A stretch of 12,575 nucleotides of DNA from a virus (taxonomy: Duplodnaviria; Heunggongvirae; Uroviricota; Caudoviricetes): the IMG/VR virus record IMGVR_UViG_2698536677_000006, positions 1 to 12,575 of that record; one strand, written 5' to 3'. Shown piece after piece: positions 1-12,100 of this stretch (the first letter of the stretch is position 1; each line of letters starts with the position of its first letter). The position numbers and the translations under genes are program-made. The notes below the pieces were generated by a model. That model worked only from the letters and a program-made list of their open reading frames with translations. It did not search any database and had not been told where the DNA came from.

Positions 1-185
1 TCCGGCTCAGTTGCACCACTGACCACCACATCACCTTCTGCTGTAATCGCCTGCATCAGGGTATAAGGGGTTATGGCCACCGGACTACCAAACGGCTGCC
101 AGCCCTCTTTCAGTTTGTGTGTCAGCTTTTCCGCAAGGTCTGACGGCGACGCCGCCCTGACAACATCATAATGTTTAATCGACAT
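1..185 (-). CDS. Partial CDS (5' end only, continues past window start): small phage protein resembling the DUF1737-type proteins found just upstream of lysis genes in lambdoid prophages
   Basis: Hand translation of minus strand from ATG at 185..183 gives MSIKHYDVVRAASPSDLAEKLTHKLKEGWQPFGSPVAITPYTLMQAITAEGDVVVSGATEP with no stop before the window edge. GGGAGA Shine-Dalgarno about 8 nt upstream. Family call is from memory. Confidence 0.45.
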   Translation of the reverse strand, partial: MSIKHYDVVRAASPSDLAEKLTHKLKEGWQPFGSPVAITPYTLMQAITAEGDVVVSGATEP

Positions 186-271
186 CGAATTTCTCCCGTG
201 TACAGGAACAGAGTTAAAAAGCCGGAACCGGAATCAAATCACAGGATGGCCATCTGCCAGTGGCTGGTCGT

Positions 272-298
272 AAAAAAAAGGCCACGCCATGCGCAGCC
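272..298 (-). terminator. Candidate rho-independent terminator downstream of the TerB/peptide cassette
   Basis: Minus-strand RNA GGCUGCGC-AUG-GCGUGGCC (8-bp stem including two G-U pairs, 3-nt loop) followed directly by U8 (plus-strand A8 at 272-279). Confidence 0.4.
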
Positions 299-499
299 GG
301 AAATAAAGGGATAACGATGATAGTTTGAGAAAAACAGAAACAACACTTTTGTGGCAAAGCATGGTGCCGGGTGCCTCCCGGTGAATTCAGTATCAGCACC
401 TGAATCCGCGATTATCCCATATACCTGGTTGCTGATCGCCCCTCCGCACAGGGGGATTCACCATGCAGAAGTGTTTTTAATAAACAGCAAACAAAAAAA

Positions 500-667
500 T
501 CAAGCATTATGCAGGCTGTTTCTTTTTATCACCGGCCACAGCAATACCACAATGCCGCAGACCAGCACCCCATCCGCCAGCACCGACATGATTCTGCTGG
601 TGAAATCCACCATCACCACCAGAAACAGCAGGAGTGCAGCCACAGCCAGGCGCAGTTTTACCGTCAC
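500..667 (-). CDS. Small hydrophobic protein (55 aa, two predicted hydrophobic segments), translationally coupled to the upstream TerB gene
   Basis: Not in the ORF track (below 60 aa). Hand translation: VTVKLRLAVAALLLFLVVMVDFTSRIMSVLADGVLVCGIVVLLWPVIKRNSLHNA, stop TGA at 502..500. GTG start at 667..665 overlaps the TerB stop TGA (666..664) in a GTGA arrangement; GGAG lies 8 nt upstream. Confidence 0.3.
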   Translation of the reverse strand: MTVKLRLAVAALLLFLVVMVDFTSRIMSVLADGVLVCGIVVLLWPVIKRNSLHNA

Positions 668-1095
668 AGGTGATTCTCCAGACGAAGACCCAGAACACCG
701 GCAATCTCTTCCAGCACCTTGCGCTCTTCCGGCTCAATTTCGCCGTCTGCCTCCGCAATGGCCACCGCCACATCCAGCACATCTTCCGCTTCACGCGTAT
801 CGTGTTTCACATCCTCAATCTCGCGTAACGCGGCACGACGACCAATTTTAAAATTGGTATCCAGCTGACCGATAATGGTTGCGCTAATCGCATTAATTTC
901 CGAGGTAAACGCAGACAACGCAGGCTGATTACGTAAGACCTGTTCGATCTTCGCTTTCTCGGATGCCTCGCATTCACCATCTGCATAGGCCACCAGGTAT
1001 GCAGCGTTAATCACCGCCTGTGCCAGATCGCGTTTCTCAAACTTTTTAATTTCCGTTGCCGCTCTGCGGGCTTTTTTACCAAAAATACCAAACAT
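664..1095 (-). CDS. TerB-family (tellurite-resistance TerB-like) protein, about 143 aa
   Basis: ORF track 664..1167; likely real start is the internal ATG at 1095 (MFGIFGKK...) with AGGA 8 nt upstream. Two acidic helix motifs typical of TerB: AAYLVAYADGECEASEKAKIEQVL and VAVAIAEADGEIEPEERKVLEEIAGVLGL. Confidence 0.7.
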   Translation of the reverse strand: MFGIFGKKARRAATEIKKFEKRDLAQAVINAAYLVAYADGECEASEKAKIEQVLRNQPALSAFTSEINAISATIIGQLDTNFKIGRRAALREIEDVKHDTREAEDVLDVAVAIAEADGEIEPEERKVLEEIAGVLGLRLENHL

Positions 1096-1227
1096 CGTGA
1101 CGTTCCTTTGGGTGGGTGAGCCAACGCCCGGGAGCGATCTGCCCACAGAGAAAGTCACACTGACCACTCCGTAAGCTCACCCCCGAAAGGCTCTGTGGTT
1201 GATATGCGCCGGGCGTGGCGCAGATAC

Positions 1228-1251
1228 AAAAAAGGCCCGCCAAAGCGAGCC
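1228..1251 (-). terminator. Rho-independent terminator immediately 3' of the tRNA pair
   Basis: Minus-strand RNA GGCUCGC-UUUG-GCGGGCC (7-bp stem, one G-U pair) followed by U6 (plus A6 at 1228-1233). Confidence 0.5.
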
Positions 1252-1263
1252 TGGAAAATAAGT

Positions 1264-1340
1264 GTGGTGCGTTGTACTGGATTCGAACCAGTGACCGATT
1301 GCTTAGAAGGCAATTGCTCTGTCCGGCTGAGCTAACAACG
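1264..1340 (-). tRNA. tRNA-Arg (anticodon UCU), phage-type
   Basis: Reverse complement folds as a 77-nt cloverleaf: acceptor GCGTTGT/ACAACGC, D-arm GCTC-AGCCGGACA-GAGC, anticodon arm ATTGC-CTTCTAA-GCAAT (anticodon TCT), T-arm ACTGG-TTCGAAT-CCAGT, discriminator A, encoded CCA. Confidence 0.85.
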
Positions 1341-1421
1341 CAGAATACCGATAATGGACCGCCACCGGGGACTCCGAATCTCGCACAGGGTGACGTTCTT
1401 TCCTGATGAGCTAGTGGCGGT

Positions 1422-1497
1422 TGGTGGCTCTTGCTGGATTTGAACCAGCGACCTGGCGATTATGAGTCGCTCGCTCTCACCACTGAGCTAAAGGGCC
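1422..1497 (-). tRNA. tRNA with CAU anticodon, ileX-like (tRNA-Ile2, lysidine type) rather than elongator Met
   Basis: Reverse complement GGCCCTTTAGCTCAGTGGTGAGAGCGAGCGACTCATAATCGCCAGGTCGCTGGTTCAAATCCAGCAAGAGCCACCA: D-arm GCTC/GAGC, anticodon loop CTCATAA, T-loop TTCAAAT, encoded CCA. Strong resemblance to E. coli ileX as recalled. One C4:A69 mismatch in the acceptor stem. Confidence 0.75.
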
Positions 1498-1537
1498 GAT
1501 AACATAATGATAACGTTACAGAATAAATTCAGCAATA

Positions 1538-2596
1538 TCACTCTCTCTTTCTGATTAAATTCTGTACATCCCTTGCGGTCTGCTCAAAACGTTCAGCCTC
1601 CAGCTCGACACCAATTGCACGACGCCCCAGCGCCATCGCGGCTTTGACTGTCGAACCCGACCCCATGAAGAAATCTGCAACCAGGTCACCCGGACGACTG
1701 CTGGCGGTAATCATTTGCCGCAACATATCTGCCGGTTTTTCACAGGGATGTTTGCCCGGATAATACTGCACAGGCTTGTGCGTCCAGACATCCGTATAAG
1801 GAACGGCTGCCGATACGGAAAAATAACGCCGCAGTGATTTGTACTCTTCCAGCAGGCTGGCATACTGCCGGTTCAGCTCACTGTATGTGCTGACCAGTTG
1901 GTGATGTGGCTTTTCCAGTTCTCCCCGCTGATGTTTCTCTTCTGCCACCCGGGCAAACAGCACCTGAAGTTTTCTGTAATCATCCTCGTTCGGTAACTGC
2001 CACTGGCTGGCACTGAACCAGTGCGACACCATGTTTTTCTTTCCTGTGGCATCTGCAATCTGTTTTGCCGTTATCCCCAGGGCCGCGCGCGCATCACGAA
2101 AGTAAGAAATCAGCGGGGCCATCACATGCTGTTTCAGTGCACTGCCCTTCGCCGCATACCCGGCATCTTTCGGACGATACGGCCCCTGATAATGTTCCGC
2201 GAACAGAATGCGCTCTGTGGCGGGGAAATACGCCCTCAGGCTTTCCTTGTTGCATCCGTTCCAGCGTCCGGACGGCTTCGCCCAGATAATATGGTTCAGC
2301 ACACTGAAGCGTTCACGCATCATGATTTCGATATCAGATGCCAGGCGATGACCACAGAACAGGTAAAGACTTCCGGCAGGTTTCAGCACCCGCCAGAACT
2401 GCGCCAGACACTGGTCCAGCCACTTCAGGTAATCATCGTCGCCCTTCCACTGGTTATCCCAGCCCTCGGGCTTCACTTTAAAGTATGGCGGGTCTGTGAC
2501 TATCAGATCGACAGAGTTTTCCGGTAAGGTCTGGATAAATTCCAGGCAATCAGCGTTGATTAACTCACAACTGGATATTTTTACAGTATTAGCCAT
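1538..2596 (-). CDS. DNA N6-adenine (or N4-cytosine) methyltransferase, beta-class, orphan (no adjacent endonuclease)
   Basis: 352-aa ORF. Catalytic motif IV DPPY near the N-terminus (LIVTDPPYFKV) and SAM-binding motif I near the C-terminus (DLVADFFMGSGSTVKAA), the circularly permuted order typical of phage amino-methyltransferases. Confidence 0.85.
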   Translation of the reverse strand: MANTVKISSCELINADCLEFIQTLPENSVDLIVTDPPYFKVKPEGWDNQWKGDDDYLKWLDQCLAQFWRVLKPAGSLYLFCGHRLASDIEIMMRERFSVLNHIIWAKPSGRWNGCNKESLRAYFPATERILFAEHYQGPYRPKDAGYAAKGSALKQHVMAPLISYFRDARAALGITAKQIADATGKKNMVSHWFSASQWQLPNEDDYRKLQVLFARVAEEKHQRGELEKPHHQLVSTYSELNRQYASLLEEYKSLRRYFSVSAAVPYTDVWTHKPVQYYPGKHPCEKPADMLRQMITASSRPGDLVADFFMGSGSTVKAAMALGRRAIGVELEAERFEQTARDVQNLIRKRE

Positions 2597-2734
2597 AGAT
2601 CAATAAGCACTTCTCTGATAGGCTCATACCGCTTTTGCGCAAAGCAGATGGGCCTGAGGTTTGCTTGTGACCACAACGCATGAGCAGATGGCTGGTGAGT
2701 GCCCCTAACACCCACCAGCCGCCCATTACCACAA

Positions 2735-2760
2735 ATAAAAAAGCCTTCACTGAGGAAGGC
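2735..2760 (-). terminator. Terminator copy in the methylase leader (copy A); the upstream gene is missing because of the N gap
   Basis: Same hairpin as at 3222..3247 and 6207..6232: GCCTTC-ACTGAG-GAAGGC followed on the minus strand by a U-run. Confidence 0.4.
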
Positions 2761-2780
2761 GTCTGTAACAACCGAACTGA

Positions 2781-2791
2781 NNNNNNNNNNN
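2781..2791. other. Run of 11 N: scaffold gap or assembly join
   Basis: Literal n characters. Sequence on each side belongs to different copies of the same repeated module (2597-2780 matches 6069-6252; 2792-3083 matches 2305-2596). Confidence 0.95.
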
Positions 2792-3083
2792 TGAAGCGTT
2801 CACGCATCATGATTTCGATATCAGATGCCAGGCGATGACCACAGAACAGGTAAAGACTTCCGACAGGTTTCAGCACCCGCCAGAACTGCGCCAGACACTG
2901 GTCCAGCCACTTCAGGTAATCATCGTCGCCCTTCCACTGGTTATCCCAGCCCTCAGGCTTCACTTTAAAGTACGGCGGGTCCGTGACTATCAGGTCAACA
3001 GAATTTTCGGGTAACGACCGGATAAATTCCAGGCAGTCGGCGTTGATTAACTCACAACTGGATATTTTTACAGTATTAAGCAT
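2792..3083 (-). pseudogene. 5' fragment of a second, diverged copy of the adenine methyltransferase gene, truncated by the N gap
   Basis: ORF track 2589..3083 begins MLNTVKISSCELINADCLEFIRSLPENSVDLIVTDPPYFKV and runs into XXXX; it differs from the 1538..2596 copy at A2L, QT to RS and A to V. The part of the ORF below 2781 is out-of-frame read-through, not gene. Confidence 0.6.
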
Positions 3084-3221
3084 GGATCATTAAGCCTGTC
3101 TCTGATAGGCTCATTCTGCTTTTGCGCAAAGCAGTGGGCCTGAGGTGTGCTTGTGAACCCAACGCATGAGCAGATGGCTGGTGGGTGCCCCTAACACCCA
3201 CCAGCCGCCCATTTACCACAA

Positions 3222-3247
3222 ATAAAAAAGCCTTCACTGCGGAAGGC
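3222..3247 (-). terminator. Rho-independent terminator overlapping the 3' end of the small CDS 3234..3431
   Basis: Minus-strand RNA GCCUUC-CGCAGU-GAAGGC followed by U6-7 (plus A-run 3222-3229). The stop codon of the small CDS lies in the hairpin loop. Confidence 0.5.
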
Positions 3248-3431
3248 GTCTGTAACAACCGAACTGATAGTCTGCCAGACCCGCCATAACCAGCTGGGTC
3301 AGTATTAACTGGCAGCGTTCGCGTGAAAGGTAAGTATTCTGCGCAATCTCCCCGACTGTCGCCGGGTCGTTAACGCTTAATTCATTAAACACCACTCTGG
3401 CGGTTTCTGTCATATCCTGCTGTTTTAGCAT
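3234..3431 (-). CDS. Small conserved protein (65 aa), first ORF downstream of the Q-position gene; function unknown
   Basis: Internal ATG of ORF 3234..3518 (MLKQQDMTETARVVFNELSVNDPATVGEIAQNTYLSRERCQLILTQLVMAGLADYQFGCYRRLPQ). The same protein with only three substitutions is encoded at 6219..6416 although the two DNA copies differ, which favours real coding. Confidence 0.45.
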   Translation of the reverse strand: MLKQQDMTETARVVFNELSVNDPATVGEIAQNTYLSRERCQLILTQLVMAGLADYQFGCYRRLPQ

Positions 3432-3553
3432 GTCTTTTTCCCTTTTCCGGTTAACGTGACACACCAATAACTCTTGTCGAAAAAGCCAGCAAGCTGAAAG
3501 ACAGGTATTCACCGCCACCAGCGCGTTTACTGTACTGACGCGATTTCAGTCAT

Positions 3554-3575
3554 AAAAAACCCGCCAGGCGGCGGG
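3554..3575 (-). terminator. tR'-like intrinsic terminator downstream of the Q gene
   Basis: Minus-strand RNA CCCGCC-GCCU-GGCGGG (6-bp GC stem) followed by U6 (plus A6 at 3554-3559), about 80-100 nt after the Q stop, as expected for the lambda PR'/tR' arrangement. Confidence 0.5.
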
Positions 3576-3657
3576 GTGTAAAAAATCTTCTAACGTCAGG
3601 CATAAAACGCCCATCGTTAGAGCAAATTTACCACAGATTCGGGAAAAATCAACAACA

Positions 3658-4479
3658 CTATCGCGTTACCCTCTTTAACTGCCGCTCCGCCCATGCCTCT
3701 TCAATGTCAAACCGAACCACCAACGTATCGTAAAAGCGTTTCACTGATTTTTTCCACGTATCAAGCGTGATAGCACTCGTCACTTTGCATATGGCATTAA
3801 ATGCCTCCGTTGATGGCAGCCTTTCACAGCCACGACCACCACAACGCTGGCAATCTCTGATAACAGGCATACCACGTTTTACCGACTCTTCACGATGAAT
3901 GGCGACACCACGCCCACGGCAATCCTTACAGGCGGTGGAAACCTCACCCTTTCCGCCACACTCCGGACAGGCAACTTTTACCACCTCCCTGACTTTTTTC
4001 CATTCTTCCCAGTAAGACGGATACACGCCTTTTGTGCACTTTGCCCACACTGGTGGCTTACCATCCGGATACTGGATCTTGTTTGTAAAAACCTCGCTTT
4101 CAATAAATTTTTTTCCGTGACAGCAGGGGCACTGTTTTTTGCTCGCCGCGCTACGGGCATAATCTTCAAACGCATACGAAGCCATAATGCGCATCACTAC
4201 CGGTTTTATTTCTGCCGGAAGTTTTCTCAACGCCGCCACACGATCGCACCGACTGAGTGCATAATCTGCCAGTAATTCTGTTGCCCGCGCCCTGTCATTC
4301 ATACTGATGCCCATTTTCCCCAGGAACGCAGAAAACCCCATCTCAGCCCGATTCTGTGTCATGCCCTGCGCGGCCATCACATCAGTGATACTCAGCGCAT
4401 CTTTTGACGTTGAGGCCGATGCATCGGTCAGGCCAGGGGATTTTGGGGAGTAGTATTTCGGTAAATCTTCCAGTTTCAT
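3658..4479 (-). CDS. Late-gene antiterminator Q, lambda-Q family, with an expanded cysteine-rich domain
   Basis: 273 aa. Recalled lambda Q matches at the N-terminus (KYYSPKSP vs KFHSPKSP; TDVMAA) and C-terminus (FYDTLVV vs LYDALVV; ends VTR). Four CxxCxGxG repeats (CPCCHGKK, CPECGGKG, CKDCRGRG, CQRCGGRG). ATG overlaps the RusA stop (ATGA). Confidence 0.8.
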   Translation of the reverse strand: MKLEDLPKYYSPKSPGLTDASASTSKDALSITDVMAAQGMTQNRAEMGFSAFLGKMGISMNDRARATELLADYALSRCDRVAALRKLPAEIKPVVMRIMASYAFEDYARSAASKKQCPCCHGKKFIESEVFTNKIQYPDGKPPVWAKCTKGVYPSYWEEWKKVREVVKVACPECGGKGEVSTACKDCRGRGVAIHREESVKRGMPVIRDCQRCGGRGCERLPSTEAFNAICKVTSAITLDTWKKSVKRFYDTLVVRFDIEEAWAERQLKRVTR

Positions 4480-4856
4480 TTTTTGACCTGCTCTTCATGC
4501 ATTATGGGGTAAATCTTCACCCCCATACGTCCACCAGATACTGGCTGACCACGAACGATATTGATTTCATCAAACTGCTCATCGTCCATTAACACTCCCG
4601 CATGCGTCAGCGCATCCAGCGGTGCTTTCAGGATATTGTCCAGGTCGCGACGACGCTTATCCGGTGGCTCTGCAATCACCTTTATCGCCAGCCTTCCGGA
4701 CAGGATTAATTTCAGCCGCTGCTGGCGAACAATAAGCGCCACAGCCCGGCGATAACGCTTTCCCTCCTCCGAGATAAAATATGTGCTGCCACGGCGTCGC
4801 CAGTAAGTGTTCACCGTTGGCGGGTAAGGCAAAACAAATTCTATGCGTTCAGTCAT
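4476..4856 (-). CDS. rusA: RusA-family Holliday junction resolvase
   Basis: 126 aa. Catalytic spacing D-x-D-x3-K ... D as in RusA (RRRDLDNILKAPLD ... LMDDEQ). Directly abuts the upstream YdfU-like stop (TAAATG) and overlaps the Q start. Confidence 0.85.
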   Translation of the reverse strand: MTERIEFVLPYPPTVNTYWRRRGSTYFISEEGKRYRRAVALIVRQQRLKLILSGRLAIKVIAEPPDKRRRDLDNILKAPLDALTHAGVLMDDEQFDEINIVRGQPVSGGRMGVKIYPIMHEEQVKK

Positions 4857-5912
4857 TTATGCTTTCCACTTCAGAACACCCGAATTTCTCGCGTGCATTA
4901 AAAAACGAATCAGCAACAACAGCTGGCTGCCGTGTTTTTCTTCAAAATCTTTTACCCCGGCGTGTAGTTCGCTATGGCATTTACGGCACAGCGGAATAAC
5001 AAACAAATCATCAGCCTTTGTTCCCATCCCTCCCAGTCCATGACCAATGATGTGATGCGGATCATCTGCCTGATTGCCACACGTCATGCATTTCTGCGTT
5101 TTTACCCAACGCGTGTATACAGGCATCTCTTCCCGTTGTGATTTCTGGCGCTGGAGATACTGAGCCGGTGACTCCGGATCAACGGCAATGCTGACCACCG
5201 TCTTTTCCTGTGGCGGGTTTTGCTGGTGGGCGTGAGGCAGCGGCGCAAGATTTTTTGTGCGCTGCTTCAGTATGCTGGTGGCGGTCTGCTCTCCCGGTAC
5301 GATGTCGCTTTCACGGTACATTGAGCGGATTTTTTCCGCACGCAACCCCAGCGAACGACGTAATACCGCTTCCGGTAGCGCGTCCGCCACCTGATTGCGG
5401 ACCGCCCACCAGGATAATTCAGCCAGCGATAATTCCCGTTCCTGCGAGCCATTCATTGCATGGCGTATGACGTCAATCATCCATGCAGACAGGTTTTGGT
5501 GAGCAAGTTGCCCGAGTGATTCGGAGGTCTGGTCGCGCAGCTGGTTGTCGCAGTGCCAGCACAACACCATTGCGCCGGTACCATAACGGTGAATGACGGT
5601 TTCACTGTGGTGATAATCGCCGTGTGGCCACTGGCAGGATTTAACATGGCGCAGTAACCAGTCAGACAATGCGCCAGCGCCACCAGCAGCACGAATCACT
5701 CGTTCGTCGCTGAAAAATGGCAGTAATGATTTATCCTCCGCCAGCGGCTGGCGAACGGCAGGAACGACCCCGGACGGCAGATTACGCATGCTTTTCGGTT
5801 CCGGCTCCACCAGTACCCGGGTATTGTGGAATACCGGCATGGATTCACGGCCCGGCTTAACGATCACCAGCCCGAGTTCCGGTACCAGAACAGGTCGAAG
5901 TAATACCCGCAC
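4857..5912 (-). CDS. YdfU-like (DUF968) prophage protein with C-terminal HNH-like zinc motif
   Basis: Homologous to the 7572..8621 copy; GTG start at 5912..5910 preceded by GGAGG. C-terminal CxxC ... HH ... C..C..H..LH motif (CMTCGNQADDPHHIIGHG ... CRKCHSELH). The ORF-track extension to 6068 is a chimera across the n at 5957. Confidence 0.7.
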   Translation of the reverse strand: MRVLLRPVLVPELGLVIVKPGRESMPVFHNTRVLVEPEPKSMRNLPSGVVPAVRQPLAEDKSLLPFFSDERVIRAAGGAGALSDWLLRHVKSCQWPHGDYHHSETVIHRYGTGAMVLCWHCDNQLRDQTSESLGQLAHQNLSAWMIDVIRHAMNGSQERELSLAELSWWAVRNQVADALPEAVLRRSLGLRAEKIRSMYRESDIVPGEQTATSILKQRTKNLAPLPHAHQQNPPQEKTVVSIAVDPESPAQYLQRQKSQREEMPVYTRWVKTQKCMTCGNQADDPHHIIGHGLGGMGTKADDLFVIPLCRKCHSELHAGVKDFEEKHGSQLLLLIRFLMHARNSGVLKWKA

Positions 5913-5956
5913 GTTACCTCCAGATGCGTTGCTGGAATGTGCGGGACGGACGCGGT

Positions 5957-6068
5957 NTGGCGGGTCTGTGACTATCAGATCGACAGAGTTTTCCGGTAAG
6001 GTCTGGATAAATTCCAGGCAATCAGCGTTGATTAACTCACAACTGGATATTTTTACAGTATTAGCCAT
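5957..6068 (-). pseudogene. Orphaned 5' end (37 codons) of the adenine methyltransferase gene, joined through a single n to the YdfU-like leader
   Basis: Encodes MANTVKISSCELINADCLEFIQTLPENSVDLIVTDPP, identical to the start of the 1538..2596 gene. 5958-6068 matches 2486-2596. The join falls at a shared GGCGGG microhomology. Confidence 0.55.
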
Positions 6069-6206
6069 AGATCAATAAGCACTTCTCTGATAGGCTCATA
6101 CCGCTTTTGCGCAAAGCAGATGGGCCTGAGGTTTGCTTGTGACCCCAACGCATGAGCAGATGGCTGGCAGGTGCCGCTAACACCCACCAGCCGCCCATTA
6201 CCACAA

Positions 6207-6232
6207 ATAAAAAAGCCTTCACTGAGGAAGGC
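6207..6232 (-). terminator. Rho-independent terminator overlapping the 3' end of the small CDS 6219..6416
   Basis: GCCTTC-ACTGAG-GAAGGC hairpin plus A-run on the plus strand (U-run on the minus transcript). Confidence 0.5.
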
Positions 6233-6416
6233 GTCTGTAACAACCGAACTGATAATCTGCCAGACCCGCCATAACAAGCTGGGTCAGTATTAACTGGCAG
6301 CGTTCGCGTGAAAGATAAGTGTTCTGCGCAATTTCCTCGACGGTCGCCGGTTCGGTGACGCTTAATTCATTAAACACCACTCTGGCGGTTTCGGTCATAT
6401 CCTGCTGTTTTAGCAT
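6219..6416 (-). CDS. Small conserved protein (65 aa), second copy
   Basis: Internal ATG of ORF 6219..6539. Identical to the 3234..3431 product except ND to TE and G to E. Confidence 0.45.
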   Translation of the reverse strand: MLKQQDMTETARVVFNELSVTEPATVEEIAQNTYLSRERCQLILTQLVMAGLADYQFGCYRRLPQ

Positions 6417-6539
6417 GCCTTTTTCCCTTTTCCGGTTAACGTGACACACCAATAACTCTTGTCGAAAAAGCCAGCAAGCTGAAAGAACGGTATTAATAAC
6501 CACCAGCGAATTTATTGCGCTGCTGTATATTACGGACAC

Positions 6540-7571: not shown

Positions 7572-8621
7572 TTACCCGAGCACGCCAGTCGCAAAGGCGT
7601 GATCAAGAAAACGAAAAATTAAATCAACCTGGGAACCATGCTTTTCTTCGAACGCCAGCGGATCCGCATGAAGCTCGTTGTGATGCTCCCGACACAGCGG
7701 TAGCGTGAAAATATCGTGGGATTTTGTTCCCATTCCACCCTGACCATGACCAATCAGATGATGAGGATCGTCCGCTGGCTTACCACAACACGCACACGGC
7801 TGTGTCTTTACCCAGCGTGTGTATTTCTCATTTACCCAGCGGCGACGTTTAGGTCGTTTCATGAAGGATTCCGGAGACTCCGGATCAACGGCAATGCTGA
7901 CCACCGTCTTTTCCTGTGGTGGGTTCTGTTGCTGGTGGGTGTGAGGCGGTAGCGCAATATTTTTTGTGCGCTGCTTCAGTATGCTGGTGGCGGTCTGTTC
8001 TCCCGGTATGATGTCGCTTTCACGGTATACGGAGCGGATTTTTTCCGCCGGTAATCCCAGAGAACGACGCGCTACTGCCTCAGGTAGTGCATCCACCACC
8101 TGATTGCAGGCCGCCCACCAGGATAATTCGGCCAGCGATAACTCCCTCTCCTGCGTACCGCTTATTGCGTGACCGATGACGTCAATCATCCATGCTGACA
8201 GGTTTTGATGAGCAAGTTGCTCGAGTGATTCGGATGTCTGGTCACGCAGCTGGTTGTCACAGTGCCAGCACAACACCATCGCGCCGGTACCGTAACGGTG
8301 AATGACTGTTTCGCTGTGATGATAATCGCCGTGTGGCCACTGGCAGGATTTCACGTGACGTAATAACCAGTCAGACAGTGCACCTGCACCACCTGCTGCA
8401 CGAATTACCCGCTCATCGCTGAAAAATGGTAGTAATGTTTTATCCTCAGCCAACGGCTGGCTAACGGCTGCAACGACGCCGGACGGAAGACTGCGCATGT
8501 TTTTGGGTTCCGGTTCCACCAATATTCTGCCGTTATGGAATACTGACATTGATTCACGGCCTGGCTTAACGATAACCAGACTGAGTTCCGGTACCAGAAC
8601 AGGTCGAAGTAATACCCGCAC
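7572..8621 (-). CDS. YdfU-like (DUF968) prophage protein with C-terminal HNH-like zinc motif
   Basis: 349 aa. GTG start at 8621..8619 with GGAGG 5 nt upstream, which overlaps the stop of the upstream small gene. C-terminus CACCGKPADDPHHLIGHGQGG ... CREHHNELH. Confidence 0.75.
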   Translation of the reverse strand: MRVLLRPVLVPELSLVIVKPGRESMSVFHNGRILVEPEPKNMRSLPSGVVAAVSQPLAEDKTLLPFFSDERVIRAAGGAGALSDWLLRHVKSCQWPHGDYHHSETVIHRYGTGAMVLCWHCDNQLRDQTSESLEQLAHQNLSAWMIDVIGHAISGTQERELSLAELSWWAACNQVVDALPEAVARRSLGLPAEKIRSVYRESDIIPGEQTATSILKQRTKNIALPPHTHQQQNPPQEKTVVSIAVDPESPESFMKRPKRRRWVNEKYTRWVKTQPCACCGKPADDPHHLIGHGQGGMGTKSHDIFTLPLCREHHNELHADPLAFEEKHGSQVDLIFRFLDHAFATGVLG

Positions 8622-8622
8622 G

Positions 8623-8895
8623 TTACCTCCAGATGCGTTGCTGATATGTGCGGGACGGACGCGGCGGGCGTTCGGAATAAGGGAGCCTGACGGAAATTAT
8701 CCAGTGTCGGAAGTCAGGATTGAGGCCTTTCTGAAACTGGTATCCACGTCTGCGGTAATTCTGAATCAGCCACTCGGCCTGTTCTTCAGTGCATTGGTCA
8801 TGCTGGTACCAGTCATATTTGAATGCGTGAGAGCGCCGTCCGTGTCTGCTGGCAGGGTCGGCATCAGAATTGTGGTGTTTGGTATTGTGCGCCAT
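8623..8895 (-). CDS. Small prophage protein (about 90 aa), function unknown
   Basis: Internal ATG (MAHNTKHH...) of ORF 8623..8976. The longer ORF-track start would run through the terminator at 8968-8993, so the internal start is preferred. Stop TAA lies 1 nt before the YdfU-like GTG. Confidence 0.4.
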   Translation of the reverse strand: MAHNTKHHNSDADPASRHGRRSHAFKYDWYQHDQCTEEQAEWLIQNYRRRGYQFQKGLNPDFRHWIISVRLPYSERPPRPSRTYQQRIWR

Positions 8896-8967
8896 CGGTT
8901 GTCTCTGCTGGCGCAGCAGGTGCCAGTTGTTCAGGCTGGCGTGTGGATTGTAAACCAGAATGCCAGG

Positions 8968-8993
8968 AAAAAACAAAACCCGCGAAGCGGGTT
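8968..8993 (-). terminator. Strong rho-independent terminator separating the restriction-modification island from the nin-region genes
   Basis: Minus-strand RNA AACCCGC-UUCG-GCGGGUU (7-bp stem, UUCG tetraloop) followed by UUGUUUUUU, about 75 nt downstream of the endonuclease stop. Confidence 0.65.
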
Positions 8994-9065
8994 AGTAAAA
9001 ATGTACTGAAGTCAATGACGTGCCATCACAGTTAAAATATGACAGACTCTATTTACGTAGAGATG

Positions 9066-9944
9066 TCAGACTGCAAGATCCAAGGGAAGATCAGAAATAT
9101 CCTTTAATCTTTTACCATTAACCATCACGGAAAGCATGTCAGCTGCATCGCTGAGCCCCAGTATTTCAACTGCTGATATAAGTTCATAAAGCGCAAAATG
9201 ATACACGCAATCTATATCACCAGTACCAAGAGCAATAGACGCCAGACGACTTGGAGTAGGCTCAGCAGTAACAACCATTACATGAGGGAGATTTCCCTTA
9301 CGGTTGCGAATAAGATTTAATGCCTCAGAACGAGCATTCTGGGCCCGGTCGCTTCTTATTGTCCATTTGCAGGAAATACTTGCGTGTAATATTGGTTTCC
9401 CACCATTCGAACTCCTGAGAGCTGACATGCGGGTAACAGAATCATCCACCAGTAATTCAGGACTGTTGATAACTTGATCACATTCAGGTTCTCTTTCAAC
9501 AATAATATCTGGTGAAATCGTATAATCACTCCCCAGTGCAGCAGCTAGCTGAGGATTACTTTTTGCAGCACTATCCAATGCTATAAGATGGGCATATTGT
9601 TCATATTTAGCTATCTCTAATCTGTTTCTACCAGAAACCTGATGTACATTCCATTTTCCAGGGCGTAAGTGGCTGAGTTTAAAAAAGGTTTTTTCTATAA
9701 ACTCTGCGCAGATACTCTCAAACTGATTACCAGATGTTTGCCCTGCAACACGTTCACCAATCGTTTCAGCCTGCAAGAAGCGAGCAATTTCTCTTGCTAT
9801 AGCTTTACTGTTTTTGTTACTGCTATCTGCGTTACTAACAACTCCGGCAGTATTAATTGTGAGCGTATTCAGTAACAATTGGGCATGAAACTCCTTTCTG
9901 GCTTCAGCAAAACCAACTATGCTGTCAACCAAATCTCCATTCAT
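9066..9944 (-). CDS. Type II restriction endonuclease, NgoMIV/Cfr10I/Bse634I-like (predicted CCGG-core specificity)
   Basis: 292 aa from ATG 9944 (MNGDLV...), with AGGAAA Shine-Dalgarno and only 13 nt after the methyltransferase stop. Active-site pattern SPD(146) ... SCK(193) ... E(207): D-to-K 47 and K-to-E 14 residues, the spacing recalled for NgoMIV D140/K187/E201. Recognition-type motif K-x3-R-x-D-R (KWTIRSDR). Confidence 0.6.
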   Translation of the reverse strand: MNGDLVDSIVGFAEARKEFHAQLLLNTLTINTAGVVSNADSSNKNSKAIAREIARFLQAETIGERVAGQTSGNQFESICAEFIEKTFFKLSHLRPGKWNVHQVSGRNRLEIAKYEQYAHLIALDSAAKSNPQLAAALGSDYTISPDIIVEREPECDQVINSPELLVDDSVTRMSALRSSNGGKPILHASISCKWTIRSDRAQNARSEALNLIRNRKGNLPHVMVVTAEPTPSRLASIALGTGDIDCVYHFALYELISAVEILGLSDAADMLSVMVNGKRLKDISDLPLDLAV

Positions 9945-9957
9945 TTCTGGATTTCCT

Positions 9958-11082
9958 TCAGGCTGCTTGACTATTCTTACTGATGTTATTCTTATACCGT
10001 CCCTGCAAAACTCCATACACATATTGTGCGATTTTTGCCGCAAATAGCGGTGGAACAGCATTCCCGATCTGCTTTGCAATCTCAGTTTTTGAACCGGTAA
10101 AAATGAAATTATCAGGAAAAGACATTAATCTCGCTGCCTCACGATGAGTTATTGGCCGATCCTCTTCCGGATGTAAATATCGCCCTTTCTCCGGTTTGAA
10201 AAACTCAGTACGAATCGTTACTGAAGGTTTGTCCCACCACAGACGTCCAAACAAATCGGTCCCTCCAGATTTCTTTTTTAGCCAGCACGCCGGGGTTATA
10301 TCAGGTCTTTTTTTCTGTAAATCGAAACGGTTACCTCCTGGTGGAACCGCTTTATATCGCTCCAGAGAAACAGGAGTGGGATTACGCCCAAAATGTAAGT
10401 TCAGCGGAGGAAGTTCATTACGAATATCAGTTCCAACAGGAGCAGGTAAGTCACCAATTGCATCACGCGTACAGACCCATTCAGGCAAAGCGACATCCTT
10501 ATCAGGGGAACGATGCGTTGGTGCTGGCGGGAACGCCGGAATACTATGCACATCGAAGAGTTCTCGTTTGATACCGATTGCTATCGTTCGTTTTCTTGTC
10601 TGAGGTACTCCATAGTCAGCAGTATTCAACACCATTGGATTAAGCAGAATAAAGCCCATGGATTTCGCTCTAAACGTAATGTCCGCAAACTCATCGCTTA
10701 TCAGCAATCCGGGGACATTTTCCATGACGAACATACAAGCCCTTGAACGCTCAATGACATCCATATAAGGCTCCCACAATGCTCTTCGGTGATCACCATA
10801 ACGATTCTTATTCAATAAACTGAATCCCTGACACGGGGGGCCACCTATGACCACATCAGCCTCAGGAACAGTATTGCTGGATGCCCACTCCTCAATATTT
10901 GCCTGAACTCCATGCAAACCAAAATTGGCATTGTAGGTATTTATAGCTGCAGCATTATTATCAATAGCAAGGATACTTTCAAAGTAGTCAGACATCTCTC
11001 CATGAAGAAAACCATAAGATAATCCACCTGCCCCACAAAAGAGGTCTATCACTCTGAATTTATTTAATTCTTTCATCCGCAT
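9958..11082 (-). CDS. DNA cytosine-5 methyltransferase (Type II restriction-modification methylase)
   Basis: 374 aa with the canonical m5C motifs in order: I DLFCGAGGLSYGF, IV GGPPCQGFS, VI ENVPGL, VIII QTRKR, X GNAVPP. GAGG Shine-Dalgarno before the start. Confidence 0.9.
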   Translation of the reverse strand: MRMKELNKFRVIDLFCGAGGLSYGFLHGEMSDYFESILAIDNNAAAINTYNANFGLHGVQANIEEWASSNTVPEADVVIGGPPCQGFSLLNKNRYGDHRRALWEPYMDVIERSRACMFVMENVPGLLISDEFADITFRAKSMGFILLNPMVLNTADYGVPQTRKRTIAIGIKRELFDVHSIPAFPPAPTHRSPDKDVALPEWVCTRDAIGDLPAPVGTDIRNELPPLNLHFGRNPTPVSLERYKAVPPGGNRFDLQKKRPDITPACWLKKKSGGTDLFGRLWWDKPSVTIRTEFFKPEKGRYLHPEEDRPITHREAARLMSFPDNFIFTGSKTEIAKQIGNAVPPLFAAKIAQYVYGVLQGRYKNNISKNSQAA

Positions 11083-11165
11083 CCATATGCCTCAGATTAA
11101 TGTTGAGCGTCTTACAGGACGCGTAATGTTAACTGGGGCTTTCTCTATCTGCCTTTTGGTGTTCA

Positions 11166-11190
11166 TGCCTGAGGCAGACAGCCTCAGGCA
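11166..11190. promoter_or_regulatory. Perfect 9-bp inverted repeat (TGCCTGAGG-n7-CCTCAGGCA) upstream of the methyltransferase gene; candidate operator or RNA hairpin
   Basis: Read directly from the sequence. The arm sequence TGCCTCAG recurs at 11094-11101, overlapping the methyltransferase ribosome-binding site. Confidence 0.3.
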
Positions 11191-11260
11191 CCCGCAGCAA
11201 TTCTACTTAACTCACGTCACCTCGCCAATATGAAATCAATCAGAAAGGTGATCCATAAAA

Positions 11261-11947
11261 TCACTCCTTCTCTTCTTTTCCGTAGTGGAGTTGGCCAATT
11301 TTGATAAGAGGGCGTCCCTGAGATTTGCGGTGTAGATTGGTATCGCGCAGAGAATACACACAGCCACAATATTCCTGCTGATAGAATTTTTCGCGCTTGC
11401 TGATTTCAATCATACGGGACGAGCCGCCCTGCTTGCGCCAGTTATAATCCCAGTACACCATACCCGGATAATGCGCAACAGCTCGCCGCCCACACTCGTT
11501 AACCTGCTGCATATTTTTCCAGCGTGAAATGCCCAGTGAACTACTGATCACACTGAAACCATTTTCAGCAGCGTACAACGCTGTCCGCTCAAAACGCATG
11601 TCAAAACACATGGTACAACGGATCCCCCTCTCAGGCTCCCATTCCATTCCTTTGGCACGTTCAAACCAGTTGTCGGTGTCGTAATCAGCATCGATAAACG
11701 GCACGCCGTGTTGTTCAGCAAAGCGAATATTTTCATCCTTACGAATTAAATACTCTTTCTGAGGATGAATGTTCGGGTTGTAGAAAAAGATGGTGTAGTC
11801 GATTCCCGAGGCCTGAAGCGCCTCCATCACTTCACCGGAACATGGAGCACAGCAAGAGTGCAGTAGTAGTTTGTTTGCCCCGTTTGGAAGCTCCAATTTA
11901 GGCCGTTTGAAATCAGCAATAGTCATAAATATTTTTATTGGGGTCAT
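11261..11947 (-). CDS. DUF208 / QueH-like protein (putative cobalamin-independent epoxyqueuosine reductase homolog)
   Basis: 228-aa ORF with the N-terminal [11 protein letters not shown] signature recalled for QueH/DUF208 and further conserved Cys residues (CTMCFD, YCGC). Start may be ATG 11947 or 11926; neither has a clear Shine-Dalgarno. Confidence 0.5.
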
Positions 11948-12100
11948 GAAAATAGCACAGAGTGTAGCATCAGAGCAGGGCTATCGGGAATATATGTCTA
12001 AATCTGGTAATATCTGGTTTTGACGCAAAGCGGACAACCACGCTGGCTCTACCCTGCGCCATGAAAATGTCAATTCACATCTGAACTAATGCTCTTTAAT

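What the first reader, a model, noticed from the sequence alone, without database searches (positions are those of the whole stretch)
9066..11082. Complete Type II restriction-modification system (m5C methylase plus NgoMIV-family endonuclease) inside the prophage early/nin region
All ten-motif landmarks of a C5 methyltransferase are present, followed 13 nt later by a gene whose PD...SxK...E spacing and K-x3-R-x-D-R motif match the Cfr10I/NgoMIV/Bse634I family, which recognises CCGG-core sites. The region looks more AT-rich than its neighbours by eye (not computed) and is closed off by a strong terminator, suggesting a horizontally acquired island. A phage-carried restriction system would protect the lysogen and affect phage host range.
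Basis: partly seen in the sequence, partly recalled or inferred. Interest (0 to 1): 0.55.

Follow-up and report, generated by a model that had tools for sequence, protein, structure and literature searches.

The report
Prophage restriction-modification pair replacing Hok toxin
The window carries an intact, already-annotated two-gene restriction-modification system, a cytosine-5 methylase plus a close relative of the enzyme NgoMIV; it is ordinary as such, but it sits in a prophage exactly where related prophages carry the hok toxin gene.

Summary

- **Methylase.** Window 9958-11082 (- strand) encodes a cytosine-5 DNA methyltransferase (PF00145, 4e-54). Motifs I, IV, VI, VIII and X were checked and are present.
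- **Endonuclease.** It starts 13 nt downstream, at 9066-9944 (- strand), and is 292 aa long. It matches Pfam NgoMIV_restric end to end (6e-127) and NgoMIV itself (PDB 1FIU/4ABT, E 1e-118).
- **Motifs.** The PD-x46-K-x13-E catalytic motif, the RxDR CCGG-reading motif and the equivalent of NgoMIV Gln63 are all conserved. I predict G^CCGGC cleavage.
- **Already known.** The same DNA (>=99% identity) is in 60 of 5,426 complete E. coli genomes. RefSeq already names the genes "DNA cytosine methyltransferase" and "NgoMIV family type II restriction endonuclease". It lies in a lambdoid prophage between queH and a DUF968 gene.
- **What is new here.** About 580 other E. coli genomes have the type I toxin gene hokD at the same position. 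About 2.09 kb (8997-11088) replaces 287 bp of a hok locus. The hok promoter, the 5' half of the hok leader and a hok-type terminator are kept.
- **Methylase lineage.** It differs from the one partnered with most NgoMIV-family enzymes.

No enzyme activity has been tested.

The parts
11200..11228 (-). hok-type sigma-70 promoter (TTGGCG, 17-nt spacer, TAGAAT). It is the likely promoter of the methylase-endonuclease transcript, with a predicted start near 11193.
   Evidence: Promoter scan. The identical element sits upstream of hokD in L085. The Rfam hok-leader model starts 7 nt downstream of the -10 hexamer.
11089..11193 (-). Remnant 5' half of a hok mRNA leader (first two hairpins, up to the GAGG at 11093-11090). 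It now forms the 5' UTR of the methylase gene.
   Evidence: Rfam RF01794 scores 61 bits here (gathering score 59), against 113 bits for the intact hokD locus. The region is 98.5% identical to L085 down to 11089 and unrelated after that. It folds at -41.6 kcal/mol, z = -2.95.
8997..11088 (-). Acquired cassette of about 2.09 kb that replaces 287 bp of the hok locus (the hok coding sequence and its surrounding regulatory region).
   Evidence: Pairwise BLAST and alignments against the hokD-bearing prophage L085. G+C is 0.43 against a 0.52 left flank. Breakpoints are accurate to a few bases.
9958..11082 (-). Cytosine-5 DNA methyltransferase gene (374 aa from 11082; 372 aa from the conserved ATG at 11076).
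   Evidence: PF00145 4.1e-54; TIGR00675 5e-45; motifs I, IV, VI, VIII and X present. RefSeq WP_001427299.1.
9066..9944 (-). NgoMIV-family type II restriction endonuclease gene (292 aa).
   Evidence: PF09015 6.1e-127, full length; PDB 1FIU/4ABT 9.6e-119; E76, D146, K193, E207, R197-x-D199-R200 and Q69 conserved. RefSeq WP_001012717.1.
8968..8993 (-). Intrinsic terminator (AACCCGC-TTC-GCGGGTT followed by a T-run) that closes the operon. The hokD locus has the same hairpin (one extra G in its loop), and so does the cassette copy in L112.
   Evidence: Terminator scans; alignment; L112 sequence.

Best explanation
This is an intact type II restriction-modification operon carried as cargo (a 'moron') by a lambdoid E. 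coli prophage.

- **Methylase (inferred target).** The first gene encodes a cytosine-5 DNA methyltransferase. It should methylate a cytosine within GCCGGC, or within a broader site that contains it, and so protect host and prophage DNA.
- **Endonuclease (inferred activity).** The second gene starts 13 nt downstream. It encodes a close homologue of NgoMIV and is predicted to cut unmethylated G^CCGGC. Like NgoMIV, it probably works as a tetramer that needs two sites.
- **Origin (shown by sequence comparison).** The cassette replaced the toxin part of a hok type I toxin-antitoxin locus that occupies the same slot in related prophages.
- **Expression (inferred).** The operon is most likely transcribed from the retained hok promoter, through about 105 nt of hok leader, and stopped at a hok-type terminator. 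That would make expression independent of phage lytic transcription, so the system would be on in the lysogen.
- **Role (inferred).** It should restrict incoming unmodified DNA, and it may stabilise the prophage by post-segregational killing.
For: - **Family assignment.** PF00145 at 4e-54 and PF09015 at 6e-127. PADLOC MTase_II and REase_II models at 9e-88 and 8e-126.
- **Similarity to NgoMIV.** phmmer E 9.6e-119 over residues 12-292 against chain residues 5-286.
- **Motifs.** The family motif PD-x46-53-K-x13-E and the RxDR CCGG-reading motif, as described in PMC3413111, are present as P145-D146, 46 residues, K193, 13 residues, E207, and R197-S-D199-R200. The equivalent of NgoMIV Gln63, which contacts the outer base pair, is Q69.
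- **Known properties of NgoMIV.** It is type IIF, cuts G|CCGGC and is a tetramer (PMC3413111, PMC4081073).
- **Purifying selection.** Against a 97%-identical copy in another prophage, dN/dS is 0.06 for the endonuclease and 0.16 for the methylase.
- **Conserved pairing.** The same methylase lineage sits directly upstream of the endonuclease in Klebsiella michiganensis and in a metagenomic lambdoid prophage contig. It does so too in 33 of 58 IMG/VR viral contigs: 27 near-identical E. coli-type copies and 6 at 73-79% methylase identity.
- **Distribution.** 60 complete E. coli genomes carry the cassette at >=99% identity. The 20 listed hits are annotated with both product names, and both are unflagged full-length genes in strain 9000.
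- **Replacement of hok.** 641 genomes match both flanks. The 30 best-ranked hold hokD between them, as annotated in L085. Breakpoints are and the leader remnant. The promoter and terminator are shared with the hokD locus.
Against: - **No biochemical or methylome evidence was found.** Full-text searches found no paper on this E. coli system. REBASE could not be queried.
- **The methylase target is only inferred from pairing.** Its target-recognition domain is unrelated to that of the methylase lineage partnered with most NgoMIV-family enzymes (28% identity, confined to the catalytic motifs). Its 67-68% relatives in Idiomarina and Cycloclasticus are paired with an HNH nuclease instead.
- **Use of the hok promoter is an inference from position.** A second copy of the cassette (L112) works without the hok leader. 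The promoter match is only 9 of 12, and such matches were no more frequent than in shuffled sequence.
- **Origin of the terminator is ambiguous.** The hairpin also travels with the cassette in L112.
Confidence: 0.88

Rival explanations
1. The pair is a decayed system. The methylase works as a solitary (orphan) enzyme and the endonuclease gene is intact in length but catalytically dead.
For: Phage-borne solitary methylases are common (general knowledge). No activity data exist for this locus.
Against: All catalytic and recognition residues are conserved. The endonuclease dN/dS of 0.06 is lower than the methylase's 0.16. Both genes are annotated as unflagged full-length genes in strain 9000, and both product names sit under all 20 listed hits.
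Confidence: 0.05
2. The system is active but recognises something other than GCCGGC, for example RCCGGY like Cfr10I/Bse634I or another CCGG-containing site. In that case the unusual methylase lineage reflects a different specificity.
For: The methylase target-recognition domain is unrelated to that of the usual partner lineage. Its relatives pair with a different nuclease fold. Specificity shifts within the CCGG family arise on a conserved scaffold (PMC3413111).
Against: Identity to NgoMIV is roughly 70% over the full length, with no gaps after residue 25. The equivalent of the outer-base contact Gln63 is kept. Cfr10I/Bse634I-type enzymes were not detected by phmmer against the PDB at E<=0.01, where only NgoMIV matched, so this protein is much closer to NgoMIV. 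Different methylase lineages protecting the same site are common (general knowledge).
Confidence: 0.08
3. The operon is not driven by the hok promoter. It uses its own promoter or phage read-through transcription, and the hok leader remnant is an inert scar of the recombination event.
For: The L112 copy has a different upstream region with no hok leader. The cassettes in Klebsiella and in L086 have unrelated flanks. The promoter match is only 9 of 12.
Against: The breakpoint leaves only about 6-12 nt between the hok leader and the methylase start codon, so there is no room for a cassette promoter there. The only other - strand promoter-like sites lie inside coding sequence (10982-10954 and 9365-9336). 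The hok promoter is kept intact in the copies that retain the leader.
Confidence: 0.35

Closest known systems
NgoMIV restriction endonuclease of Neisseria gonorrhoeae (PDB 1FIU, 4ABT); type IIF; cuts G^CCGGC
   Same: Full-length alignment, E 1e-118, roughly 70% identity (estimated from the printed alignment). Same length class (292 against 286 aa). Same PD-x46-K-x13-E active site, the same RxDR CCGG-reading motif, and Gln63 conserved.
   Different: It has about six extra N-terminal residues. It is carried by an E. coli lambdoid prophage rather than the Neisseria chromosome. Its partner methylase is of a different lineage. Activity, oligomeric state and cleavage position are untested.
RefSeq WP_001012717.1 with WP_001427299.1 (E. 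coli O157:H7 strain 9000 and 59 other complete genomes)
   Same: The DNA is 99.9-100% identical across 9000-11250 in the listed hits, junctions included. The genes are annotated 'NgoMIV family type II restriction endonuclease' and 'DNA cytosine methyltransferase'.
   Different: None of substance: this is the same element. RefSeq starts the methylase at the ATG equivalent to window 11076.
Phage-borne NgoMIV-type restriction-modification pairs (for example Xylella fastidiosa prophage xap4, PMC2605562; 58 IMG/VR viral contigs)
   Same: An NgoMIV-family endonuclease with an upstream cytosine-5 methylase, carried as non-essential prophage cargo.
   Different: About 21 of the 58 IMG/VR contigs use the shorter (~320 aa) methylase lineage that has PCP instead of PCQ in motif IV. 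So, as far as the two loci read in full show, do the bacterial loci outside Enterobacterales. None of the other contexts examined has the hok-leader junction.
hok/sok type I toxin-antitoxin locus (hokD of lambdoid prophages; Rfam RF01794)
   Same: It occupies the identical slot between queH and the DUF968 gene. The promoter, the first ~105 nt of leader and the terminator hairpin are shared. Both are addiction-type modules (general knowledge).
   Different: The hok coding sequence, the rest of the leader (Rfam model positions from about 88 onward) and the sequence just upstream of the terminator are gone. No toxin-antitoxin function can remain.

Membership tests
NgoMIV family of type II restriction endonucleases (Pfam PF09015) | Sequence match to the family profile above the curated threshold, over the full length | tested here: met
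   423 bits against a cutoff of 23.2; profile positions 1-275 of 275.
NgoMIV family of type II restriction endonucleases (Pfam PF09015) | PD-x46-53-K-x13-E catalytic motif plus the upstream acidic residue (equivalent of Bse634I Glu80) | tested here: met
   P145-D146, 46 residues, K193, 13 residues, E207; E76 also present. Motif definition from PMC3413111. The NgoMIV residue numbers (E70, D140, K187, E201) are from my memory; they fit the motif spacing and the alignment.
NgoMIV family of type II restriction endonucleases (Pfam PF09015) | RxDR motif that reads the CCGG core | tested here: met
   R197-S-D199-R200, identical to NgoMIV in the alignment.
NgoMIV family of type II restriction endonucleases (Pfam PF09015) | Contacts that specify the outer G:C pair (NgoMIV Gln63 is the one documented in the text I read) | tested here: met
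   Q69 aligns with Gln63. The other outer-base contacts of NgoMIV were not checked against a source.
NgoMIV family of type II restriction endonucleases (Pfam PF09015) | Cleavage of G^CCGGC as a tetramer that needs two sites (type IIF) | not testable with these tools
   Needs enzyme assays. Predicted only from roughly 70% identity to NgoMIV.
Cytosine-5 DNA methyltransferases (PF00145) | Profile match and the conserved motifs I (FxGxG), IV (PCQ), VI (ENV), VIII (QxRxR) and X (GNAVP) | tested here: met
   184.6 bits against a cutoff of 22. Motifs at residues 15, 83, 121, 161 and 340.
Methylase lineage usually partnered with NgoMIV-family endonucleases (~320 aa, PCP in motif IV) | Homology across the target-recognition domain | tested here: not met
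   28% identity over the N-terminal catalytic part and 37% over motifs IX-X, with nothing in between. It is either 25-35% identical or undetected at E 1e-10 in 80 bacterial loci. That this lineage includes M.NgoMIV itself is assumed, not checked.
Cytosine-5 DNA methyltransferases (PF00145) | Methylation of GCCGGC that blocks the cognate endonuclease | not testable with these tools
   Inferred from the conserved methylase-endonuclease adjacency and from persistence of an intact endonuclease gene.
Type II restriction-modification operon | Adjacent, co-oriented methylase and endonuclease genes, with the pairing conserved across hosts | tested here: met
   13-nt gap. The same pair is adjacent in Klebsiella, in a metagenomic prophage contig and in 33 viral contigs.
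hok/sok type I toxin-antitoxin | A Hok toxin reading frame with a complete regulatory leader | tested here: not met
   Only about the first 87 model positions of the leader are homologous, scoring 61 bits against 113 in the intact locus. The hok coding sequence is absent.

The most novel reading that the evidence does not exclude
One addiction module has displaced another and taken over its expression signals. The restriction-modification operon is transcribed from the hok promoter, carries the first two hok leader hairpins as its 5' UTR, and starts translation just past the GAGG where the hok leader breaks off. I read that GAGG as the ribosome-binding site of the overlapping 'mok' frame, from memory of hok biology. 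If so, hok-type RNA features such as a stable, structured leader could shape the timing or level of methylase and endonuclease synthesis, and the prophage's post-segregational killing function has passed from a membrane toxin to a restriction enzyme.
Probability: 0.4. Interest if true: 0.4.

Novelty: already known. Interest (0 to 1): 0.2.

Why it matters
**Consequences for the host.** A prophage-borne GCCGGC restriction system would shape which foreign DNA and phages can enter its E. coli hosts, which include O157:H7, O111, O103 and EPEC strains. It would add m5C marks that standard PacBio methylome surveys usually miss (general knowledge). It could also stabilise the prophage.

**What the analysis adds.** These consequences are expected for any type II system, and the genes are already correctly named in RefSeq. 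The modest added value is evolutionary:
- The cassette occupies the hok toxin slot and inherits hok expression signals.
- NgoMIV-family enzymes are served by two unrelated methylase lineages.

Tried and rejected
- **Phage genome search.** INPHARED phage genomes do not contain the cassette. Only the 160-nt hok-leader flank matched.
- **Literature.** Searches for NgoMIV with O157, with prophage and with GCCGGC, and for hokD with restriction-modification, found nothing on this E. coli system.
- **NCBIfam.** It has no model for the endonuclease.
- **Residue numbers.** My first attempt to confirm NgoMIV residue numbers in the SgrAI paper found none. I used the motif definition in the Bse634I paper instead.
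- **Motif filter.** My first regex filter for neighbouring methylases was too strict and missed the PCP-type lineage. Reading the ORFs directly corrected this.
- **Site avoidance.** I considered that the lack of GCCGGC sites reflects avoidance caused by this system: 0 observed against about 3.6 expected in the window, and 2 against 8.6 in the 26-kb prophage. I do not rely on it, because I recall GCCGGC being rare across E. coli generally and could not test a genome-wide background.
- **Sok control.** I considered control by the Sok antisense RNA. The leader is homologous only up to the first bases of the third hairpin, which from memory of hok biology is the part Sok pairs with. No + strand promoter-like site lies near the junction. 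I judge it unlikely.
- **Controller or repair genes.** No additional ORF fits between the flanking genes, so there is no controller (C) protein or Vsr-like repair gene in the cassette.
Full report
**1. The observation**

The region holds two co-oriented ORFs on the - strand.

- **Methylase.** The upstream ORF (9958-11082, 374 aa) matches the cytosine-5 DNA methylase profile PF00145 at 4.1e-54 over nearly the whole profile. It also matches TIGR00675 at 5e-45. Motifs FCGAGG, PPCQ, ENV, QTRKR and GNAVPP are at residues 15, 83, 121, 161 and 340.
- **Gap.** The methylase stop codon ends at 9958 and the next ATG is at 9944.
- **Endonuclease.** The downstream ORF (9066-9944, 292 aa) matches PF09015 NgoMIV_restric at 6.1e-127 over profile positions 1-275 of 275. 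It matches the PADLOC REase_II model at 8e-126.
- **Composition.** G+C is 0.43 for the pair, against 0.52 for the 1.9 kb to the left and 0.47 to the right.
- **Terminator.** An intrinsic terminator lies 73 nt past the endonuclease stop, at 8977-8993.

Only two details need adjusting: the terminator position, and a two-codon uncertainty in the methylase start (11082 or 11076).

**2. What the endonuclease is**

A phmmer search of all PDB chain sequences returns one hit, NgoMIV (1FIU/4ABT). The E-value is 9.6e-119, covering query residues 12-292 against chain residues 5-286 with a single one-residue gap. I estimate identity at roughly 70% from the printed alignment.

The Bse634I structural paper defines the family active site as PD-x46-53-K-x13-E plus an upstream Glu, and the CCGG-reading element as RxDR. 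It reports that NgoMIV Gln63 hydrogen-bonds the outer cytosine (PMC3413111). In the window protein these are:

- P145-D146, then 46 residues, K193, 13 residues, E207
- E76
- R197-S-D199-R200
- Q69

All are in register with NgoMIV at a constant offset of +6.

NgoMIV is a type IIF tetramer that cuts G|CCGGC. I therefore predict the same site and mechanism here. This is inference from close homology, not a test.

**3. The methylase is a different lineage from the usual partner**

I fetched 80 bacterial loci whose endonuclease is 59-78% identical to this one, from several bacterial phyla. Their neighbouring methylase is either only 25-35% identical to the window methylase or undetectable at E 1e-10.

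In the two loci I read in full, the partner is a cytosine-5 methylase of about 320-337 aa with PCP instead of PCQ in motif IV. It shares only the catalytic motifs with the window enzyme and nothing across the target-recognition domain.

The 372-aa lineage accompanies the endonuclease in these settings:

- Enterobacterales and their phages. It is directly upstream in Klebsiella michiganensis and in a metagenomic prophage contig.
- Cedecea and Cronobacter, where both proteins are found in the same species, and in Cedecea on contigs of the same length.
- 33 of 58 IMG/VR viral contigs.

More distant members of the same methylase lineage (67-68% identity; Idiomarina, Cycloclasticus) keep a highly conserved recognition domain. 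They are paired with an HNH nuclease carrying a winged-helix domain instead.

The methylase target is thus inferred only from its stable pairing with an intact GCCGGC-type endonuclease.

**4. Functionality**

- Compared with a 97%-identical copy in another prophage (L112), dN/dS is 0.06 for the endonuclease and 0.16 for the methylase.
- Against the Klebsiella and metagenomic copies, the DNA is 72-74% identical. Methylase protein identity stays at 79-81%, and endonuclease identity at 85% for the metagenomic copy, with synonymous sites saturated.

Both genes are under purifying selection.

**5. Context and prior knowledge**

- **E. coli genomes.** The 2.25-kb stretch 9000-11250 is present at >=99% identity in 60 of 5,426 complete E. 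coli genomes. These include O157:H7 strains, O111:H8, O103:H2, O39:NM and EPEC E110019.
- **Annotation.** RefSeq annotates the genes as "DNA cytosine methyltransferase" and "NgoMIV family type II restriction endonuclease".
- **Other hosts.** The exact endonuclease protein is on at least 1,000 contigs in the protein collection. Close relatives occur in Salmonella and Kosakonia.
- **Prophage.** In strain 9000 the pair lies in a complete lambdoid prophage, between the replication-region genes (DUF977, queH) and the nin-type genes (DUF968, rusA, Q).
- **Precedent.** Phage-borne NgoMIV-type systems have been noted before in Xylella prophages (PMC2605562).

The finding is correct but already known at the level of annotation. 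I found no paper that characterises this E. coli system.

**6. What the cassette replaced**

I searched with the two flanks joined. This found 641 genomes covering at least 80% of the query. The best-ranked 30 all have hokD, a type I toxin gene, between queH and the DUF968 gene, as annotated in L085.

Homology with such a prophage (L085) runs as follows:

| Window | L085 | Identity |
|---|---|---|
| 11089-12000 | 2390-3301 | 98.5% |
| 8300-8994 | 1401-2102 | 87% |
| ~8997-11088 (2.09 kb) | 2103-2389 (287 bp) | replaced |

- **Leader remnant.** Rfam's hok-leader model (RF01794, named "sok") scores 113 bits on the intact locus and 61 bits on the window at 11013-11193. Only about the first 87 model positions are homologous.
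- **Upstream breakpoint.** It falls right after the GAGG at 11093-11090. In the hok locus this GAGG lies 8 nt before an ATG, which I take to be the start of the overlapping "mok" frame (from memory of hok biology). In the window the methylase ATGs lie 7 nt (11082) and 13 nt (11076) after it.
- **Promoter.** The hok promoter (TTGGCG, 17 nt, TAGAAT; 11228-11200) is identical in both loci and ends 7 nt before the leader start.
- **Downstream breakpoint.** It is at the base of the terminator hairpin, which is shared. The sequence GCACCC lies just upstream of the terminator in the hok locus. It is complementary to the leader's 5' GGGUGC, and I read it as the hok fold-back element. It is absent from the window.

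**7. A complication**

In L112 the cassette sits in an unrelated prophage context, without the hok leader. Homology runs from window 11080 to 8970, so it includes the same terminator hairpin.

So the terminator may travel with the cassette, or L112 may derive from the hok-slot version. I cannot tell which. The cassettes in Klebsiella and in the metagenomic contig L086 share only the coding region with the window and have no hok leader upstream.

**8. Mechanism**

- **Shown.** Gene content, motifs, adjacency, purifying selection, the replacement of hok, and the retention of the hok promoter, half the leader and the terminator.
- **Inferred.** GCCGGC specificity; m5C protection; transcription from the hok promoter in the lysogen; defence against unmodified DNA; a possible addiction effect.

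Regulation by the Sok antisense RNA seems unlikely. The part of the leader that I recall as its target (the third hairpin) is gone, and no + strand promoter-like site lies near the junction.

**9. Verdict**

The system is an ordinary, already-annotated type II restriction-modification pair. The hok-slot replacement and the two-lineage methylase partnership are modest new details. Interest is low (0.2).

Noticed in passing
window 11013-11228 (- strand): There is a remnant hok promoter and the 5' half of a hok leader (Rfam 'sok' RF01794, 61 bits) directly upstream of the methylase. The same ~160 nt matches 15 INPHARED phage records (14 E. coli phages including Rac types and mEp460, and one Actinobacillus phage record) and thousands of E. 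coli genomes.
   Followed up: yes
window 1-6500; N runs at 2781-2791 and 5957: The left half looks like a scaffold or collapsed-repeat assembly. It has three copies of the N-terminus of an N6/N4 DNA methylase (ORFs ending at 2596, 3083 and 6068), two DUF968 genes, two rusA genes and two Q-like genes. One chimeric ORF (4857-6068) joins the methylase N-terminus to DUF968 across an N. No complete E. coli genome is collinear with the whole 12.5 kb.
   Followed up: partly
window 323-495, 1268-1341, 1425-1497 (all - strand): An STnc100 small RNA (104.7 bits) and two tRNA genes lie downstream of the phage N6/N4 DNA methylase gene.
   Followed up: no
window 11261-11947 (- strand): The prophage encodes an epoxyqueuosine reductase QueH homologue (PF02677, 1e-65) immediately upstream of the hok/restriction-modification slot. 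It is a tRNA-modification enzyme carried as phage cargo.
   Followed up: no
whole window; L001 (26-kb prophage of strain 9000): GCCGGC is scarce: 0 sites against about 3.6 expected in the window, and 2 against 8.6 in L001 (order-4 Markov estimate). RCCGGY occurs 14 times in the window. I could not separate an effect of this system from a general E. coli bias.
   Followed up: partly
L082 744-2829; L083 and L084 3001-5073: Methylases 67-68% identical to the window enzyme, with a conserved target-recognition domain, are paired in Cycloclasticus and Idiomarina with a 322-335 aa HNH nuclease carrying a winged-helix domain. This may be an unrelated endonuclease for the same site.
   Followed up: partly
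L112 2865-4983 (IMG/VR UViG_2757320581_000006): The same cassette (97% DNA identity) sits in a different prophage context that is absent from complete E. coli genomes. It lacks the hok leader but ends with the same terminator hairpin.
   Followed up: partly
L002-L081 (80 bacterial loci): NgoMIV-family endonucleases are unusually conserved for restriction enzymes: 59-78% identity to the E. coli protein across several bacterial phyla (for example Proteobacteria, Acidobacteria, Planctomycetota, Actinomycetota and Bacillota).
   Followed up: no
window 664-1167 (- strand): There is a TerB-domain protein (PF05099, 7e-16) at the left end of the window, next to the tRNA genes.
   Followed up: no
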